NCBI GenBank assembly: GCA_049999805.1
Contig: JBNGIO010006249.1
Span: 255,589-319,588, forward strand
Source: Folioceros fuciformis
Taxonomy: Eukaryota
Direction: 5' to 3'
DNA: 64,000 nucleotides
The position numbers and the translations under genes are program-made. Numbering within the stretch: position 1 is the first letter of the stretch; each line of letters opens with the position of its first letter. This document shows, piece after piece, positions 4,402 through 36,490 of this stretch. The notes below the pieces were generated by a model, which saw nothing but the letters and a program-made list of their open reading frames with translations, was not told the origin of the DNA and did not search any database.

Positions 4402-4669
4402 GATCATGATTGCGTTGTTCAAGGTATTGGGTATCAATTACCAGTCTAAGATCATGNNNNNNNNNNNNNNNNNNNNNNNNNNNNNNNNNNNNNNNNNNNN
4501 NNNNNNNNNNNNNNNNNNNNNNNNNNNNNNNNNNNNNNNNNNNNNNNNNNNNNNNNTTGCGTTGTTCAAGGTATTGGGTATCAATTACCAGTCTAAGATC
4601 ATGCTTGCGTTGTTCAAGGTATTGGGTATCAATTACCAGTCTAAGATCATGCTTGCGTTGTTCAAGGTA
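4402..4669. repeat. 48-bp tandem repeat (cttgcgttgttcaaggtattgggtatcaattaccagtctaagatcatg) spanning an N-gap
   Basis: Near-identical units occur on both sides of the gap at 4457-4556, so the true copy number is unknown. Confidence 0.9.
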
Positions 4670-12030: not shown

Positions 12031-15000
12031 CTCCCCCTCACCGTGGATCCAATCTCGCAAGCCTTGAAATTTGGATGCTGCTAAAGAGAATGTGTGATGG
12101 CTGACAGTCACGGGTGATTGAGTCACTCCCCCTCACGCATGAGCCTGAGATAAGAATCCTTGCTGAAAGGCCCTATTGCAACTACATACTTCTTACGAAG
12201 TGATTTGGATAACCCCTTGGTCAAGAGATCTGCTGTTTTCTCTACTATGCTGATATACTTTAGAATCACTTGCTTGTTGGCCACGGTCTGATAGATGAAA
12301 TTGTATTGAATTTCCACATGTTTCGTCCTGGCGTGCAAGATTGGGTTATAAGTCATTGTGATGGTGGACTGATTATCGCAAAACAGCTCAATTGGTTCTG
12401 ATTGTGACTCGTTGATATCCTGAAGAAATTGCCTAATCCATAGAATCTCTTTCGCGTCTAGGGTTGTTGTTGCATACTCAGCCTCGGTTGAAGATGTGCA
12501 GATTGTTTGCATCTTTTTACTTGCCCAAGAATCTGTTGAAGCGTTGATGCGTATGCAATAGGCTGTTACTGATTTCCTCGAGTCTGGGTCGCCAGCCCAA
12601 TCTGCATCAAACAAGCCAATTAATTTGAGGTTAATTGCATGATCAGCCTTATACAGTAGCCCTAAGGATTTGGTNNNNNNNNNNNNNNNNNNNNNNNNNN
12701 NNNNNNNNNNNNNNNNNNNNNNNNNNNNNNNNNNNNNNNNNNNNNNNNNNNNNNNNNNNNNNNNNNNNNNNNNNCATGATCAGCCTTATACAGTAGCCCT
12801 AAGGATTTGCTCATTTTGAGATAGCGTAGGATTCGTTTCACGCTTGTCCAGTGAGCCTTTCCGAGGTTTAACATATATTTGGCCACAATGTTAACGGCTA
12901 GTGCAACGTCTGGCCTTGTCCATATTGATAAGTACAACAAGCTGCCTACAGCCTCATTGTAAGGTACATTCTTCATCTCATTGATGTCTTCTGGTGATGT
13001 GGGGCAGTCAAGTGCTGACACTTTGTCGCCGAACGCTATTGGTGTAGCAACTGGTTTGGCATCTGACAGATTAAACCTGGTAAGCAGCTGGTCAACATAA
13101 TGTTTCTTATGGATGAAGAAGGAGCCATCGGATGGGTTTTGCTCAAACTGGACTCCGAGTGCGAAGCAGAGAGGCCCCATATCTACAACGTCGTATTCCT
13201 TACCTAGTAAGTCCTTCACATGTTGAATGATTTTAGGAATGTTACCGAAAATGAAATTGTTGTCGACATAAAGTGTCACGATTGCAAGCTCGTCTCCTGA
13301 TTTCAGAACATACACGCTCTTGTCTGCTGTGAGGCTGGAGAAACCATATTTATGGAGGTACAAGTCGACTGTTTCATTCCACACTTGCGCTAACTGCTGG
13401 AGGCCGTAAATGCTTTTAAGAAGCTTGCACACCTTGTTGGGGTCTTGAATGAAACCTGGTGGTTGCAACATGTATATATCTTTATGCAGCGTTCCATACA
13501 GGAAGGCTGTTTTAACGTCAACCTGATGTATCTGCAGATAGTGGTGAGCTGCGAAAGCAAGAAGAATTTGGATAGACGTGGATTTTACGACTGGGCTGAA
13601 AAGCCAATGCTCCTTGTAGTCGAAGCCCGGCACCTGGGTGAACCCACGGGCTACGAGTCTTGACTTGAATCTTGATATAGTGCCATCTGGTTTAAGTTTT
13701 CTTCTGAAGGTCCACTTATAGGAAATTGGTTTCCGCCTAGCAGGCAGGTCAGTAAGCTTCCAGGTCTCGTTTGCAATTAGGGAATCGTATTCGGAATGTA
13801 TTGATGCTTTCCATTCAGGTATACTACGTGCTTCTTCTATGCTTGCTAGTACACCTTGCATCTCAATTGCAGAGAGGGCTTGATGAAGGGCAAGCTGAAC
13901 TGAATCACTCTCGGAAGCTCGTGGTCGAACTGACACCTGTACGGGTGGAGTAACTGAGGGTACCTCTACCTCTACAGATGGTGTGGCTACTTGACGAGAA
14001 AAAGACTCTCTAGGAGCAGTGGGTGGATTTCTCCATTGATGGCTAGGTGGCCTATGGCAAGTGGATCGCCTAAGAGGTGATGTTTCGGGTTGAGGGGTAC
14101 TGACCTCATAATCTGGCTAGTTGAGGAGAGGCAAGCTGTCCATATGGTTGTCTGGTGTGGCATGACCTAATGGTAAGTCGTGTGGATGCGGTAGAGCGGG
14201 AGCTTGGTTTGGAGTTATTGATTGAAGTGGCTGGACGAGAGAAGGTGAAGCCGGAGGTGGATCATTCCCTGTCGGACCTTGAAACTCAAACTCATAATCG
14301 CTGGGGTTATATGTGTCCCCCTTAAGGTCAGATTAGGAATCAGGTGAGAAACTAAAAATACTAGGGTCAAGCAAAGGAATAGCGGTAGAGACGGAATGGA
14401 GGTATGTTTGAATAAGAGTGGCTTCATGGAAGTGAATGCTATGGGATAGGATTACCTGCATTGTAGATGGGTCGAAAAGTTTGTAAGCCTTGGACTGATC
14501 TGCATAACCAATGAACAGAAGTTTGCGTCCTTTGTCATTCCACTTCTTACGAAAATCACCAGGGATGTGAGCAAAAGCTGGGCTGCCGAAGATTCGAAGG
14601 TAAGAAATTTTGGGCTTGTGGCCGGTTCAGCGTTCATAGGGTGTTGTGTTGACAAGCTCCTTAGTAGGTAGGCGATTCTTCAGATAGTTTGCTGTAGAGA
14701 CGGCTTCGGCCCAATAACCTTTTGTAAGCCCTGCCAGCTTAAGGATGGAGCGCGAGATTTCCAGCAACGAGCGATTCAGTCATTCGGCAAAGGGGTTTTG
14801 AGAAGGCGTGTAGGGAACTGTGTACTGGCGAAGAATTCCTCTAGAGGTAGAGAATGAATGAAAGGATTGACTGGTATATTCCCCGCCGTTGTCTGCTCTA
14901 AGGGTGCGAACCTGAAACCCCATCTGCCTTTCTATAGTGGTGACATACTCTTGAAAACAGGAAAAGGCCTCATCTTTGTGACGGAGAAAGTAAACATGAC

Positions 15001-25300: not shown

Positions 25301-25535
25301 CTTGCTATGGTCGCACATTTGGGGTGGCCATGGTGTGCTGCTTCTGCTGCAGCAGCTCCTTGTTTGTGGTGCACATGAAGAAGAAGCCCCGTTACCTGAC
25401 TCTGACACCCGCCTTTGGGCCAGCCGGCGCCAGGCATGCCACACTGTGTTGCAATTCGCTGGCTGCGGAGCCCGGATTTGGATTTGGTGATCCTGCTGGT
25501 GCCTGCAGCTGCAGGGGATTCGAGCTGCGCACAGG

Positions 25536-28500
25536 ATGCCGAGAACGAGCGACCTAGATGACCAGCTTCCAGAGGAGGGAGCGCAGGATCCCATCATCTC
25601 CCGCGTGAATTCTATGACTGGATCGCCGGACCGAGGGGCAGGTTCCGAGACTAAGCGCCTCAGCAGGTCCCGCTCTATTCCGTCGGGCGAGCTACAAGAA
25701 GGCGTCACTGCCGTGTTCCCTGGGCCCTTGCTGCCCACAGTTAGGCGTTTGAACAGCTCGCCCAAGTCCATCGGAGCGCAGAAGGAGCCTGTGAGAGACG
25801 CTCGTGCCGCGCTAGAGGCTGCGGGCACTGTGGGATCGGTGAACGGAGACTCGGCGAGCAGAGACCCGAGCAGGAATCAGGCAGAAGCGGCTGCTGCTCC
25901 TGAGGGGTTCGTGGTTGGAAGCCAGGGAATCAGCCCAATTTCTCCTAGGGAAAAGAGGACAGCCAGGGAGTTCTCTGAGGATCTTCTCCGGGTTAAATTT
26001 GATAAATTCGACAAGGGGAAGGTCGGCAAGGAGGGCGCCACAGCCTCCCTGCTCGCCCGGGATGCAAGTCTGTTGCGAAGGAATGCTTGGAAGCCTCCGT
26101 CTCGGGCGGACAGCGAGGGGAATGAGCACTTGCTGGTACGCCCTGCCAAAGCTCCTAGAACGGAAGCGGAAGCTGCAGGCTTGCAATCTGCACCGAACTC
26201 CCAACCCCAGCAACCTTTGCAAGACAATGGAGTGTCTGCCAGCACTGACACTGGCTCTGGCACTGGCGTTGGCATCAGTTCTTCGGGAACTCATTCTGGG
26301 TTACCAGGACCTTCGCGTGCTCCCTTCAAGGCCTTGAACAAGAAGGAGGATTCCAATAGTCAGGATGCTGTCCCAGTTGGCCTCAGAAGGAGAAGGGTGA
26401 ATGCTGGTGTTGGCTTGTTGGATCTCCCCGAGGAAGCCTTTGAGGGGCGAAGACATCTTGAATCCTATGTCAGTGATGTAGCTAAACGGCAGGCATCAGG
26501 AGGGGGTTCCAGGCCAGCGCCAAGCACCTCTGTCGAAGCCCACCAACAGTTATCGCATCTGCGTTCAGTTCTTCAGTGGCCTTTCAGAGTCTTAGGAGGG
26601 CCACTTGGTTCTCCTGTTCATTTTCTGCTGGTAGGCTTGGGTTTGCTGAGTCACGGCCTTTGTGCGTTGTCTTAAAGTTTGTATTTTTGACCTTGTGAGT
26701 CGTTAAATCTCTCCACCCTCATCTCATTGGTGCACATGTGCAGGTTCTGGCAGCATGTGTGCTGTCAATGATGTATGCTATAGCGATGCACTCAGAGGTC
26801 CAACATTTGAGGGTACTAAGCATTACCTTCTTCCTATTGCTTTTCCTTGTCGCTTCAACAGCTGCTGATTATAACGTTTGTTGTCTTTTCAGGGTGAACT
26901 TCTGCGCCTACAAAGCAGAGCCATTTCTTGCCCACCATGCCTCACCCCAAACCACGGGGATCAGGGCGCGATTGAAATGGATGGAAGCGAACAGGATTCA
27001 GTTGGGGCTCGGCGATTTGCTCTGTTCATGTCTTCACTGGTGCTCTTAGCTCCTTTTGTTTTCTTCAGATACGTTGATGACTTTCCCAGGTGGATGGGAT
27101 CTCCAAATAGGACTCCAGAAGAGGCATTACCTCTCAGTAAGCAGCTGGCTTACCGGGTGGATGTCCTCTTCTCTACTCACTCTTTTGTGAAGCCACTTGC
27201 ACTATTGTTGGCTACTATTTTGCTCATAGGAGTGGGCGGGGTTGCTCTCTTTAGTGTGAGCAGCGAGAGCTTGTGGGACACATTATGGCTGGCATGGACT
27301 TACGTGGCTGATGCGGGAAATCATGCAGACAGTGTTGGATTGGGTCCTAGAGTGGTGTCGGTATGCATAAGTTTTGGGGGCATGCTTATCTTTGCACTGA
27401 TGGTAGGGCTCGTGTCCGATGCTATCTCTGAGAAGGTCGACTCACTAAAGAAAGGGAAGAGTGAAGTTATCGAAAGCAACCATACTTTGATTCTGGGCTG
27501 GAGTGATAAGCTGGTGAGGCATTTCCTTACACAGTTCGTTTATCCTGCTAATTTAGTGCGAGATGATGCATGTTTTAAGCTGGACTGACACTGAAAGCAC
27601 CTGGTGCTGCTTCTCACAACTTTGACTGAAATCCAGGGATCACTTTTGAAGCAGTTAGCCATAGCAAATCAAAGCCTCGGGGGAGGTGTAGTGGTTGTGC
27701 TGGCTGAGCGAGACAAGGAGGAGATGGAGATAGACATTGCGAGGCTGGAGTTTGACTTCATGGGAACCAGTGTTATTTGCCGAAGTGGTAGCCCGCTTAT
27801 AATGGCAGATTTGAAGAAGGTTTGTTCTTGATGTGCCAGGGCTTTCCAAGAAGCGCGTCTTTGTTTCATGATAATGCCCTGGACTAGGAAAGGGTGGCTG
27901 GTGTACATCTGGCAGCATTTTAGCTTATTCATTTGTGCCTCTCGGATTGTTGACCAGGTTGTCCAAAACTAGGTTGGCGACAACCCTACAGTGCTTAATA
28001 TCTTTGTGTCCTTGTTACTAAGCAGGTATCTGTCTCTAAAGCTAGGTCAATAATTGTCCTAGCTGAAGTTGAGAATGCCGACCAGGTATGATGCAGTTTC
28101 TCTTCCCGTTGTTGTGCGTGTCATCCATAGTCTCAAGATGATCAGATGGTCTGGCTACTTTCAAATTACGATTTCCCTGCAGGAACATTGTACTTTCACT
28201 AATATTTTCGTAGCGTCCTGCTCGTTGCAGAGTGACGCTCGTGCTCTGAGGGTGGTCTTGAACTTAACAGGCGTGAAGGAAGGCTTGAGAGGGCACATTG
28301 TTGTGGAGTTGAGTGATCTTGACAATGAACAGCTTGTCAAGCTCGTAGGGGGGGACCTTGTAGAAACTGTAGTTGCCCATGATGTGATCGGCCGACTAAT
28401 GATACAGTGTGCCCGACAACCCGGCCTTGCGCAGGTTTATTGGCTCCATGTTATTTCTGGTAGTCTCAGTTTGTTGAATCTGCTCGCACCTTCCACATGA

Positions 28501-30901
28501 GATGCGGCCAACCCTCAAGTGTTTGTGATCGCAGATCTGGGAGGACATTCTTGGATTTGATAATGCTGAATTCTACATCAAAAGGTGGCCTCAGCTCGAT
28601 GGCATGAAGTTTGAAGATGTGCTGATCAGCTTTCCAGATGCCATACCTTGTGGGGTTAAAGTGTCTGCCAGAGGCGGGCAAATAGTTTTGAATCCAGAAG
28701 ACGACTATGTCCTTTCAGAAGGGGATGAATTACTTGTGGTGGCTGAAGATGATGACACATATTCGCCTGGACCTCTGCCTGAGGTAATTTCTTCAAAATC
28801 CACCTTTGAGTGGATGAGTGGAATTCTTTACACTAGCTTTGTGCATAAAAAACAGCAGTAGTTTTTATCATGCTCTAGCAAGCGGATCCATCAGGGTTGG
28901 TTTGGCTTTCGCTACCAATGCTGTAGCTGAGAAACAGATAGAAACGCACCCTACTTCAGTTGAATGAACTGCACCTCAAATCCAGGAGCTCTTAAGCATG
29001 TGGGTGGTTGCACATGATGGTGGGCAGCATGTGCTTGGTATATGATCGATTCGCTTTAAAAGCGGAATATGAGCAGCACCACTCTTGTGGCAACTCTCCT
29101 TTCAGATCAGCTGAACTGGAGGACACAAGGGAGTAGCTCATAGAGATGGGTTTGGTGCTCCAGGTGATGATGCAAGCCCTTCCACCAGGGGCCGTCANNN
29201 NNNNNNNNNNNNNNNNNNNNNNNNNNNNNNNNNNNNNNNNNNNNNNNNNNNNNNNNNNNNNNNNNNNNNNNNNNNNNNNNNNNNNNNNNNNNNNNNNGGC
29301 GAGATATTGATGATATGATAGTGGTAAGCACTGATATTTCCAGGATCCTCTACCTTGCTGTGCTCATTCCAAACCACCGCTGCTGCAGGTGCGAAGAGGG
29401 CCCTTGCCCCAAATTGTAAGTGCTCCAAAGCTTCCAGAGAGGATTCTCTTTTGCGGTTGGCGTCGGGATATTGATGATATGATAACGGTAAGGCACCTGG
29501 GCCATAGTGCGACTCGCAGCACTTTCGGATATTCAAGTATCAGTCTGGGGATAACGTCAATGGGCTGCTGTTGGCTCCATATTGGAACACTACTTCGAAC
29601 AGCATCCTTACTTACCTCCCGTCCTGGCCTTCTGTCCCCAGTCATGGTTGGGGGTCTCGGATGGAAGTGGTGGATGTAGCTTGGAAGCTCTCGTCACTTG
29701 TCTTCTTACAGTACTGCACTTTCTAATGATTATCCAAACCATGTAAACAGGTTCTGGAGGCATTTTTAGCCAGTGGTTCAGAACTGTGGCTCTTCAGCGA
29801 GGTTCCCTTAGCAGACAGAGAAAGGAAACTCCAAGATGGCGGCCTTAATTCTGACCAGCTGGTCAACACAGTGCTTGTTCATCGCGAGGGGAATGCTGTG
29901 ATACGTCGGCATCTTGAGAGTCTGCCGCTTGAGACCTTTGATTCTGTAAGATGTCCGTGCAGTTAGTCCTGATTTTGTACACAAGTCTTCTCCTTTGCGA
30001 TTGATCATGTGGTATCCCAACCTCTTGAAGTTCTAAATGAACATGTTTGCAGATATTGATTCTTGCGGATGAGGCTCTAGAAGATACAGTTGTGAATGCG
30101 GATTCACGTTCTCTAGCTACTCTTCTTCTCATTCGAGACATTCAGGTGACAGAATCAGCACACTACAGATCCGAATGCAGTCTTGTACTGACAGTCATTC
30201 TGCTTATCTGCATATTGTGGACACTGATGCAATTTACCTTAAGACACCCCTTCTGTGTTTGGTTGTGTTCGACAGTCGAAGCGAATGCCGTATAGGGACA
30301 AAGCCAGCCAGGTGTCTCGTCAAACAGAATCTGGTATCATGCAGAGCTCTTGGATCAATGAAATGCAGCAAGCATCTGACAGCTCAATTATCATAAGTGA
30401 AATCCTGGATTCTCGGACAAAGAACCTTGTTTCTGTGTCAAAGATCAGTGATTATGTGCTTTCTAATGAGCTTGTGAGTATGGCATTAGCAATGGTGTCT
30501 GAGGACAAGCAGATCAATAGGGTTCTAGAAGAACTTTTTGCAGAGGAGGTAAGAGCACGTTGCATTTTGATTTTCTTTCAACTTTGCTGCCTCAAGTGGA
30601 GAAGTTGGCATTTTGACGATGCAACAATTTAGAAGCACGTTGCTACTTCGACGTGGTTAGCTCATGATGTTTCTTTACGCAGGGCAATGAGATGTACATA
30701 CGCGCTGCAGAAATGTATCTCTATGACCAAGAGGAGTTGAGTTTTTTTGAGGTCATGATCCGTGCTCGACAACGGCATGAGATTGTGATCGGATACCGCC
30801 AGGCTTTGGCAGAAAGAGCTGTCATCAATCCTCCCAACAAGGGTATCCCTTTAAAGTGGTCAGTTTGTGATGTCTTCATCGTCCTTTCCGAGGAAGAGTA
30901 A
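25536..30901 (+). CDS. DMI1: CASTOR/POLLUX/DMI1 family nuclear-envelope cation channel (common symbiosis pathway), ~1119 aa; exons 25536-26630, 26744-26812, 26893-27513, 27637-27819, 28026-28085, 28231-28434, 28535-28783, [29164-29323 or 29389-29487], 29751-29945, 30053-30145, 30276-30548, 30683-30901
   Basis: Motifs AYRVDVLFS, WTYVADAGNHAD, VSDAISEKVDSLKKGKSEVIESNH, VICRSGSPL, HDVIGRLMIQCARQPGLAQ, ILFCGWRRDIDDM and SNELVSMALAMV. All introns are GT-AG phase 0 with the frame intact. Confidence 0.96.
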
Positions 30902-35871: not shown

Positions 35872-36490
35872 GCCTCACTCTTAGGTTAGATGATAAATAT
35901 GGACCTAAACATTCTATAACTCACTCTTAGGTTACATGAGAAACGTGCACCTAAACATTCTATAACCCACTCTTAGGTTACATAAGAAACGTGGACCTAA
36001 ATATTCTACAACTCGCTCTTAGATTACATAAGAAACCTGGACCTAAACATTCTATAACTCGCTCTTGGGTTACATAAGAAATGTGGACCTAGACATTCGA
36101 TAACTCACTCTTAGGTTAGATGATCAACGTGGACCTAAACATTCTATAACTCACTCTTAGGTTAGATGATCAACGTGGACCTAAACATTCTANNNNNNNN
36201 NNNNNNNNNNNNNNNNNNNNNNNNNNNNNNNNNNNNNNNNNNNNNNNNNNNNNNNNNNNNNNNNNNNNNNNNNNNNNNNNNNNNNNNNNNNNGACCTAAA
36301 CATTCTATAACTCACTCTTACGTCACATAAAAAACGTGGACCTAAATATTCTATAACTCACTCTTAAGTTACATAAAAAACGTGGACTTAGACATTTGAT
36401 TACTCACTCTTAGGTTAGATGATAAACATGGACCTAAATATTTTATAACTCACTCTTAGGTTACATAAGAACGTGGACTTAGGCATTCAA
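35872..36490. repeat. 46-bp tandem repeat array (ggacctaaacattctataactcactcttaggttacataagaaacgt) spanning an N-gap
   Basis: About 11 visible contiguous units with scattered substitutions and no unique spacers; gap at 36193-36292. Confidence 0.93.

What the first reader, a model, noticed from the sequence alone, without database searches (positions are those of the whole stretch)
29164..29487. Tandemly duplicated, diverged exon 8 in DMI1/CASTOR/POLLUX: probable mutually exclusive splicing
Seen: exon 8b (29389-29487, 99 nt) encodes VRRGPLPQIVSAPKLPERILFCGWRRDIDDMIT. Just upstream, a second copy has its own acceptor (ctccag|29164) and donor (29323|gtaagc) and reads VMMQALPPGAV..[N-gap]..RDIDDMIV. 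Both are phase 0-0. The copies differ synonymously and in amino acids, so this is not a simple overlap artefact. The spacer is only 65 nt, with a CTGAT branch-like motif about 10 nt from the donor. The flanking introns (380 and 263 nt) are much longer than the gene's others (80-145 nt). Inference: steric mutual exclusion gives two channel isoforms differing in the linker/start of the second RCK gating domain, a splicing alternative to the CASTOR/POLLUX gene duplication. If 8a is 99 nt, the true gap is 39 nt.
Basis: partly seen in the sequence, partly recalled or inferred. Interest (0 to 1): 0.75.

Follow-up and report, generated by a model that had tools for sequence, protein, structure and literature searches.

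The report
Alternative exon pair in symbiosis channel
A plant nuclear ion-channel gene needed for root symbioses carries two tandem copies of one small exon, and RNA data indicate that a transcript uses one copy or the other, giving two channel versions; the same arrangement sits unremarked in many other plants.

Summary
Exon 8a (29164-29323) and exon 8b (29389-29487) of a CASTOR/POLLUX/DMI1-type gene are diverged tandem copies with their own splice sites, 65 nt apart.

Contigs of four public runs bridge the 100-N gap with 42 letters, not 39. Exon 8a is therefore 102 nt (34 codons) and in frame.

Three of the runs skip the gene's other introns, so they are RNA. They give joints 7->8a (2 of 3 runs), 8a->9 (1 of 3, a close relative), and 7->8b and 8b->9 (3 of 3). 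No 8a->8b or 7->9 joint is listed. Mutually exclusive use is thus supported. The full 7-8a-9 form is not shown in the window's own species.

The pair is not unique to this organism. Seed-plant CASTOR genes have an upstream "A" and a downstream "B" version of the same exon, 54-66 nt apart, with equal-length A-only and B-only database isoforms. Selaginella has a 34/33-residue pair.

The exon encodes the second half of the RCK1-RCK2 linker and the start of RCK2. All solved structures carry the B form.

Six of my nine literature searches looked for such splicing; none found a paper on it. Whether 8a is orthologous to the A exon is open, because the 42 letters were never displayed.

The parts
25491..30898 (+). 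CASTOR/POLLUX/DMI1-type ion channel gene. The 5' limit is approximate. It has a long low-complexity N-terminal ORF, then the transmembrane exon from about 27007; the stop codon ends at 30898.
   Evidence: ORF list; tblastn of 8 homologues; PF06241 at 111 bits on exon 7; E 3.6e-43 to solved DMI1 7VM8; exon borders.
28535..28783 (+). Exon 7 (249 nt, 83 codons). It is the common upstream exon and ends ...DDDTYSPGPLPE.
   Evidence: RNA contigs of X3, X6 and X17 end here and branch three ways: intron, 8a and 8b.
28784..29163 (+). Intron between exon 7 and exon 8a (380 nt, GT..AG).
   Evidence: Joint 28781->29162 (cut +2) in X3 and X6.
29164..29323 (+). Exon 8a, the upstream alternative copy. Its true length is 102 nt (34 codons): 34 nt, then 42 nt that the window shows as N, then 26 nt. 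It reads VMMQALPPGAV, 15 unseen residues, then RDIDDMIV.
   Evidence: for the sequence; 42 letters between 29197 and 29298 in 4 of 4 runs; joints 7->8a in X3 and X6; joint 8a->9 in X6.
29198..29297 (.). Assembly gap of 100 N that stands for 42 real bases.
   Evidence: for the N run. In one search, X1 record 2 places 28668-29197 at its positions 30-559 and 29298-30400 at 602-1704.
29324..29388 (+). Spacer intron of 65 nt between 8a and 8b (gtaagc...tgcag), with CTGAT at 29331-29335. No contig shows it spliced out on its own. RNA contigs of all three runs contain it unspliced.
   Evidence: In one search, none of the 9 listed joints is 29323->29389; pieces X3 record 10, X6 record 15 and X17 record 4 run through it.
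29389..29487 (+). Exon 8b, the downstream copy (99 nt, 33 codons). It corresponds to the form in all solved structures.
   Evidence: Joints 7->8b and 8b->9 in X3, X6 and X17.
29488..29750 (+). Intron between 8b and exon 9 (263 nt). Its first 132 nt (29488-29619) show no difference in the relative 'organism C', against 9 differences in the rest. RNA contigs of all three runs cover it unspliced.
   Evidence: tables 3, 5 and 8; Fisher test.
29751..29945 (+). Exon 9 (195 nt), the common downstream exon (VLEAFLASGSELW...).

Best explanation
Exons 8a and 8b are a real tandem duplicate of one coding exon in a channel gene that is co-orthologous to CASTOR and POLLUX, in a non-seed land plant. A transcript takes either 8a (102 nt) or 8b (99 nt) between exons 7 and 9. 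The two channel subunits would be identical except for 33-34 residues: the second half of the RCK1-RCK2 linker and strand A of RCK2.

Shown:
- The DNA is contiguous across the gap.
- Both exons are spliced to exon 7.
- Each exon is spliced to exon 9; for 8a this was seen only in a close relative.

Inferred:
- The two exons cannot be joined to each other because the 65-nt spacer is too short. Any branch point 15 nt or more upstream of the 8b acceptor lies 50 nt or less from the 8a donor.
- The two isoforms differ in how the gating ring couples Ca2+ binding to opening.

The same exon exists in two alternative versions in seed-plant CASTOR and in Selaginella, so this looks like a recurring or ancient property of the family.
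For: Gap and frame: 4 of 4 runs bridge 29197->29298 with 42 letters. 34+42+26 = 102, which keeps the head frame (VMMQALPPGAV) and the tail frame (RDIDDMIV) in one reading frame.

The runs are RNA: X3, X6 and X17 skip four other GT..AG introns of the stretch. DNA run X1 skips none.

Joints:
- 7->8a in X3 (same species label as the window) and X6.
- 8a->9 in X6.
- 7->8b and 8b->9 in X3, X6 and X17.
- Nine joints are listed; none is 8a->8b or 7->9.

One locus: the exon 7 contigs are single (3581 nt in X3, 0 other letters) and branch only at the exon end.

Constraint: in organism C, at most 3 differences fall in 322 nt around 8a tail, spacer, 8b and the intron start, against 39 in 872 nt of five other exon pieces (Fisher p = 0.002). 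The RRDIDDMI codons differ between 8a and 8b at synonymous positions (cga against cgg).

Other plants:
- Equal-length A-only and B-only isoform pairs exist in Cornus (899/899 and 891/891), Rhododendron (900/900) and Asparagus (754/754).
- Selaginella has a pair of 917 and 916 residues, with a 34-residue and a 33-residue exon.
- Gene models that read through the A-B spacer give 18 codons (5 proteins) or 22 codons (1 protein), that is 54 or 66 nt.

Structure: LjCASTOR linker is residues 553-580 and RCK2 is 581-853. R589 and R590 contact H463 and D442 at the Ca(I) site (passages of PMC6697748). Exon 8b aligns to chain positions 254-286 of 6O7C, which are residues 565-597.

Steric criterion: a donor-to-branch-point distance under 50 nt is the published criterion for steric interference (passage of PMC5740500).
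Against: In X3, the window's own species, no 8a->9 joint is listed. The contig that holds 8a runs on through the spacer into 8b. Read in the 8a frame, that form meets a stop 31 codons after 8a.

X17 shows no 7->8a joint.

All runs are contigs, which drop rare variants, so the missing 8a->8b joint is weak evidence.

The 42 letters were not displayed, so a stop codon inside 8a is not excluded.

No branch point was mapped. Introns of about 65 nt are spliced in some plants (recalled), so steric exclusion is not proven.

Folding 29298-29640 gave no structure signal (z = 0.77).
Confidence: 0.78

Rival explanations
1. Exon 8a is a decoy or regulatory exon rather than a coding alternative. Splicing exon 7 to 8a mostly yields transcripts that keep the spacer and stop early, which lowers channel output.
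For: In X3 the 8a contig continues unspliced into 8b and no 8a->9 joint is listed. In X6 one contig of comparable depth also continues unspliced. With the spacer retained, the 8a frame stops after 31 codons. The introns around the pair are covered by RNA contigs while other introns are not.
Against: An 8a->9 joint exists in X6. Exon 8a is exactly in frame at 102 nt. It keeps RDIDDMI with synonymous changes. A-only isoforms of equal length are annotated in many plants. Unspliced contigs may simply be splicing intermediates.
Confidence: 0.13
2. Both exons are included together, so the protein carries a tandem 67-residue repeat, as many automatic gene models of other plants show.
For: Double inclusion would stay in frame (102+99 nt). 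71 of the 321 stored proteins are models with both exon versions in tandem.
Against: No 8a->8b joint appears in 3 RNA runs, while both 7->8b and 8a->9 joints exist. In the solved structures a single copy forms the linker and strand A.
Confidence: 0.03
3. Assembly artefact: two haplotypes or two loci were joined across the N gap, so there is really only one exon 8.
For: A 100-N scaffold gap lies inside 8a.
Against: One DNA contig (X1 record 2, 2066 nt, 0 other letters) and RNA contigs of three runs cross the gap with the same 42 letters. The 8a tail, spacer and 8b lie on one uninterrupted stretch of the window. Two related species have the same layout.
Confidence: 0.02

Closest known systems
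A/B exon pair of seed-plant CASTOR (database isoforms, for example Vitis X2, Cucumis X2, Cornus X1-X4, Asparagus X1/X2, Ginkgo Gb_17779, Cryptomeria SUGI_0489020)
   Same: It is the same exon of the same gene family, in two versions. The upstream copy ends ...DDMIV, as 8a does. The spacer is very short (54-66 nt against 65 nt). Either copy is used, giving isoforms of equal length.
   Different: Those genes belong to the CASTOR clade, which arose after the seed-plant gene duplication. The window gene branches outside that duplication. The seed-plant A exon has 33 residues, while 8a has 34. The visible head of 8a (VMMQALPPGAV) resembles 8b-type heads (xxLPxxV), not A-type heads (VKEASFIHIAR). 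The diagnostic middle of 8a lies in the unseen 42 nt.
Selaginella moellendorffii 'probable ion channel POLLUX' isoforms X2 and X3 (P0234, P0233)
   Same: It is a non-seed-plant gene from before the CASTOR/POLLUX duplication, with two versions of this exon. The alternative version has 34 residues, the same length as 8a.
   Different: Only the proteins were seen, so the order of the exons and the spacer length are unknown. Its A exon groups with seed-plant A exons only weakly (support 75, 34 columns).
Mutually exclusive exons enforced by steric hindrance (alpha-tropomyosin exons 2/3, recalled; OGDH exons 4a/4b, abstract of PMC7969005 seen in the listing)
   Same: Two adjacent homologous exons are separated by an intron too short to hold both the donor complex and the branch-point complex. 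A branch-like CTGAT lies 8-12 nt from the 8a donor.
   Different: Those cases are from animals and have mapped branch points. Here nothing is mapped, and the minimum intron length of this plant is unknown.
BK (Slo1) channel splice variants in the RCK1-RCK2 linker (STREX insert; recalled, not checked here)
   Same: An RCK gating-ring channel is tuned by alternative splicing in the linker between its two RCK domains.
   Different: STREX is a cassette insert, not a swap of homologous exons. There is no sequence relation.

Membership tests
CASTOR/POLLUX/DMI1 ion channels | Castor_Poll_mid domain (PF06241) | tested here: met
   Exon 7 scores 111 bits against a cut-off of 26.7.
CASTOR/POLLUX/DMI1 ion channels | Two tandem RCK domains that can be aligned to the solved gating rings | tested here: met
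   Exon 7 matches DMI1 7VM8 at E 3.6e-43 and exon 8b at E 3.2e-10. tblastn of 8 homologues is collinear from the transmembrane exon to the stop.
CASTOR/POLLUX/DMI1 ion channels | Position in the family tree | tested here: met
   In a tree of 32 rows the window falls among 12 non-seed-plant rows (95*), outside seed-plant POLLUX (99*) and CASTOR (94). One chosen row, P0253, dropped out because a motif was not found.
Mutually exclusive exon cluster from tandem exon duplication | Adjacent exons that are homologous, of similar length and in the same phase, each with its own splice sites | tested here: met
   102 and 99 nt, phase 0-0, AG/GT on both. Alignment against shuffles.
Mutually exclusive exon cluster from tandem exon duplication | Transcripts contain one exon or the other, never both and never neither | tested here: inconclusive
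   All four single-exon joints were seen across the runs and no 8a->8b or 7->9 joint was seen. However, 8a->9 appears only in the relative (X6), and contigs cannot prove absence.
Steric-hindrance class of mutually exclusive exons | Donor-to-branch-point distance below about 50 nt in the intervening intron | not testable with these tools
   The spacer is 65 nt. The criterion comes from PMC5740500. The branch point is not mapped.
Seed-plant/Selaginella 'A' version of the exon | P-[QK]-K-I-L-L-C-G-W core without the glutamate of the B form | not testable with these tools
   The core of 8a lies in the 42 letters that read laying did not print.
Seed-plant/Selaginella 'A' version of the exon | Upstream position, short spacer, ending ...DDMIV | tested here: met
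   These features are weak on their own.

The most novel reading that the evidence does not exclude
The two-exon switch is ancestral to land plants, or at least to vascular plants, and has been kept for more than 400 million years. After the seed-plant gene duplication CASTOR kept it and POLLUX/DMI1 lost the A exon. The A isoform would then be a functionally distinct, so far unstudied subunit that changes Ca2+ gating of the nuclear symbiosis channel, alone or in mixed tetramers with the B isoform.
Probability: 0.3. Interest if true: 0.8.

Novelty: new member of a known kind. Interest (0 to 1): 0.62.

Why it matters
CASTOR, POLLUX and DMI1 generate the nuclear calcium spiking needed for mycorrhizal and nodule symbioses.

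- Every solved structure found here (6O6J, 6O7A, 6O7C, 7VM8) carries the B form of this exon.
- A second, conserved form would alter the linker that ties the two RCK domains together, next to the R589/R590 contact at the Ca(I) site. It would be a natural variant of the gating machinery that nobody appears to have tested.
- Annotation is affected. 71 of the 321 stored family proteins are models that wrongly string both exons together.
- Mutually exclusive exons are, to my recollection, rarely documented in plants. A pair shared by a non-seed plant, a lycophyte and seed plants is either very old or repeatedly evolved. Both cases point to selection on this segment.

Tried and rejected
- Whole-genome search of the window's own assembly: no genome is held.
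- Earlier findings of this scan by place, words and sequence: nothing.
- The look-up of sequencing runs: no RNA holder listed. X3, X6 and X17 are labelled 'RNA?' as a guess. I treat them as RNA only because their contigs skip introns.
- Parts without cover or joints not listed: no 7->8a joint in X17, no 8a->9 joint in X3 or X17, and intron 7 uncovered in X6. Contigs do not show absence.
- Reading the 42 gap letters: read laying prints at most 40. An exact 30-mer scan of metagenome contigs found 0 matches. No protein of this genus is in the protein collection; the best exon 7 identity was 87%. The letters stayed unseen.
- RNA structure as the exclusion mechanism: the fold of 29298-29640 gave z = 0.77, and 78 of 100 shuffles fold as well. 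There are four 10-nt inverted repeats at 90% complementarity, one linking 29330-29339 to 29535-29544. This is not more than chance.
- Literature: nine searches in all. Searches asked for splicing of CASTOR/POLLUX/DMI1; two searches asked for mutually exclusive exons in plants in general, and I did not open their hits. I found no paper that describes alternative or mutually exclusive splicing of this exon; the 298 matches were seen only as its 12 listed titles. Searches looked for structure and mechanism papers. PMC9013439 and PMC3228551 had no passages on steric exclusion or on plants. About 1.7 million PMC articles and subscription journals are outside the search.
- Exon-level tree to decide whether the pair is ancient or independent: 34 columns and support 75 are too weak.

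Full report
**1. What is in the sequence**

One search confirms every coordinate of the finding.
- Exon 7 ends at 28783 (GAG|gtaatt).
- A first copy of the next exon starts behind ctccag at 29164. It reads VMMQALPPGAV, runs into exactly 100 N (29198-29297), resumes as ..RDIDDMIV and ends before gtaagc at 29323.
- Sixty-five bases later, behind tgcag, a second copy (29389-29487, 99 nt) reads VRRGPLPQIVSAPKLPERILFCGWRRDIDDMIT and ends before gtaagg.

The two copies are alike beyond chance. The tail alignment, including the first bases of the following intron, was reached by 0 of 500 shuffles. The head alignment, including 8 bases of the acceptor, was reached by 2 of 500 and needs a 1-nt gap.

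The gene is a CASTOR/POLLUX/DMI1-type channel.
- Exon 7 scores 111 bits on PF06241.
- Exon 7 matches solved DMI1 (7VM8) at E 3.6e-43.
- Eight homologues align collinearly from the transmembrane exon to the stop.

**2. The gap and the RNA evidence**

The look-up of sequencing runs listed 24 coded runs. I laid four on 28000-30400 at 85% likeness.
- X1: DNA, possibly the source of the assembly.
- X3: same species label as the window.
- X6 and X17: two close relatives, 95-99% alike.

All four are contig sets, so they can show presence but not absence or expression level.

All four bridge 29197->29298 with 42 letters. In X1, one 2066-nt contig with no other differences does so. Exon 8a is therefore 34+42+26 = 102 nt. 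This is the one length class modulo 3 that keeps the visible head frame and tail frame in a single reading frame. The letters themselves were not printed, because the tool shows at most 40.

X3, X6 and X17 skip four further GT..AG introns of the stretch and X1 skips none. I therefore treat the three as RNA.

The joints around the pair were as follows.

| Joint | X3 | X6 | X17 |
|---|---|---|---|
| 7->8a | yes | yes | no |
| 7->8b | yes | yes | yes |
| 8a->9 | no | yes | no |
| 8b->9 | yes | yes | yes |

None of the nine listed joints is 8a->8b (29323->29389) or 7->9.

The exon 7 contigs are single and branch only at the exon end. The two forms therefore come from one locus.

RNA contigs of all three runs also run unspliced through the spacer and through the 263-nt intron behind 8b, whereas the other introns are uncovered. 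In X3 the contig holding 8a continues this way, and no 8a->9 joint is listed. Read in the 8a frame, that form stops 31 codons after 8a. It may be a splicing intermediate or an unproductive product.

**3. Signs of constraint**

In organism C (X6) at most 3 differences fall in the 322 nt from the 8a tail to 29619. All 9 differences of the 8b-9 intron lie at 29620 or beyond. Five other exon pieces carry 39 differences in 872 nt (Fisher p = 0.002). Near-invariance of the alternative exons and of adjacent intron sequence fits regulated splicing. Between 8a and 8b the RRDIDDMI codons differ at synonymous positions.

**4. The same exon elsewhere**

A search with exon 7 showed that CASTOR proteins of Gossypium, Cucumis, several Malvaceae and Ginkgo exist with either of two versions of this exon, or with both in tandem.

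A profile of the upstream 'A' version (A1) was used as a query. It found the A exon in CASTOR of many eudicots, grasses, Vanilla, magnoliids, Ginkgo and Cryptomeria.

Over all 321 proteins stored from my three searches (a chosen sample, not a random one) the tally was:

| Exon content | Proteins |
|---|---|
| B only | 169 |
| A only | 55 |
| A followed by B | 71 |
| No core motif | 26 |

Equal-length A and B isoform pairs are annotated for Cornus florida, Rhododendron vialii and Asparagus officinalis. An unequal-length A/B pair is annotated for Citrus clementina.

Six models read through the A-B spacer. It is 18 codons in five of them and 22 in one, that is 54 or 66 nt. It begins VS (GTnAG) and ends Q (CAG).

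In seed plants the A exon was found only in proteins named or placed as CASTOR.

Selaginella moellendorffii isoforms X2 and X3 differ at exactly this exon. The two versions have 34 and 33 residues.

**5. Where the window gene sits**

The transmembrane exon is 74-75% identical to Diphasiastrum, Calypogeia and Marchantia, and 68% to Selaginella. Nothing closer is in the collection.

I built a tree of 32 rows with the exon 8 columns removed; one chosen row, P0253, dropped out. Seed-plant POLLUX (9 rows, 99*) and CASTOR (11 rows, 94) together form one clade (95*). The window gene lies among 12 non-seed rows, next to liverworts (support 90). The gene therefore predates the CASTOR/POLLUX duplication.

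An exon-only tree (36 rows, 34 columns) puts the Selaginella A exon with the ten seed-plant A exons, but with support of only 75.

For 8a the diagnostic core is hidden in the gap.
- Its length (34) and its ending (DDMIV) fit the A type.
- Its visible head, and the nucleotide similarity to 8b that extends into the acceptor, fit a younger duplication or gene conversion.

Ancient origin and repeated duplication both remain open.

**6. What the exon encodes**

In LjCASTOR, RCK1 is residues 320-552, the linker is 553-580 and RCK2 is 581-853. The linker is described as a rope that ties the C-terminal subdomains to the RCK2 N-lobe. R589 and R590 stack on H463, and R590 forms a salt bridge with the Ca(I) ligand D442 (passages of PMC6697748).

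Exon 8b aligns to positions 254-286 of the 312-853 construct, which are residues 565-597. The two versions keep the RRD motif. They differ mainly in the linker half and in the last residues.

That the isoforms differ in Ca2+ gating is my inference and is untested.

**7. Mechanism of exclusion**

The 65-nt spacer (54-66 nt in angiosperms) leaves 50 nt or less between the 8a donor and any branch point 15 nt or more from the acceptor. A distance under 50 nt is the published criterion for steric interference (passage of PMC5740500). A minimum plant intron length of about 70 nt is recalled, not checked.

Double inclusion or double skipping would stay in frame, so nonsense-mediated decay cannot enforce the choice.

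No RNA structure signal was found.

**8. Novelty**

Nine searches of the held library were run. Searches asked about splicing of this family and about mutually exclusive exons in plants in general; two searches sought structure and mechanism papers. I found no paper on splicing of this exon, though I saw only the listed titles. The isoforms do exist in public annotation.

The kind of feature (tandem-duplicated, mutually exclusive exons) is known. This is a new, well-supported member in a gene of high interest. The family-wide pattern appears unremarked.

Noticed in passing
proteins P0057, P0073, P0103, P0106, P0117, P0122-P0144 and others: 71 of the 321 stored CASTOR/POLLUX proteins are gene models that include both exon versions in tandem. 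Six more read through the 54-66-nt spacer. These are probably systematic annotation errors in public plant genomes.
   Followed up: partly
window 27007-30898: All nine mapped exons from the transmembrane exon to the stop have lengths divisible by 3 (507, 183, 60, 204, 249, 195, 93, 273, 216), so every intron is phase 0. Exon-8-skipped isoforms (…PEVLEAFL…) are annotated in other plants: P0008, P0025, P0036, P0084, P0235.
   Followed up: partly
window 29488-29619: The first 132 nt of the intron behind 8b show no difference in organism C, while the remaining 131 nt show 9. This may be a conserved splicing control element.
   Followed up: partly
window 29330-29339 and 29535-29544: A 10-nt inverted repeat (ACTGATATTT / AAGTATCAGT, 90% complementary) links the CTGAT just behind the 8a donor to a site about 50 nt behind the 8b donor. 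It is not above chance on its own.
   Followed up: no
window 28643-28668: The DNA run X1 has two contigs that stop at 28643 and start at 28668, inside exon 7, each with about 30 unlike loose letters. The RNA contigs run straight through. The cause is unknown.
   Followed up: no
window 4457-4556, 12675-12774, 36193-36292: Three further runs of exactly 100 N are present. As at 29198, the real gaps may be much shorter than 100.
   Followed up: no
window 25491-26672: A long open frame of low complexity lies upstream of the channel domains. A short stretch (25635-25787) is 57% identical to the N-terminus of the Diphasiastrum protein P0005. It is probably the N-terminal extension of the same gene; the start codon was not determined.
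   Followed up: no
protein P0240 (JGI metagenome; 708 aa): A plant-type CASTOR/POLLUX protein is labelled 'Trk K+ transport system NAD-binding subunit' in a metagenome source. It groups with the window gene and liverworts. This is probably host plant DNA in an environmental sample.
   Followed up: no
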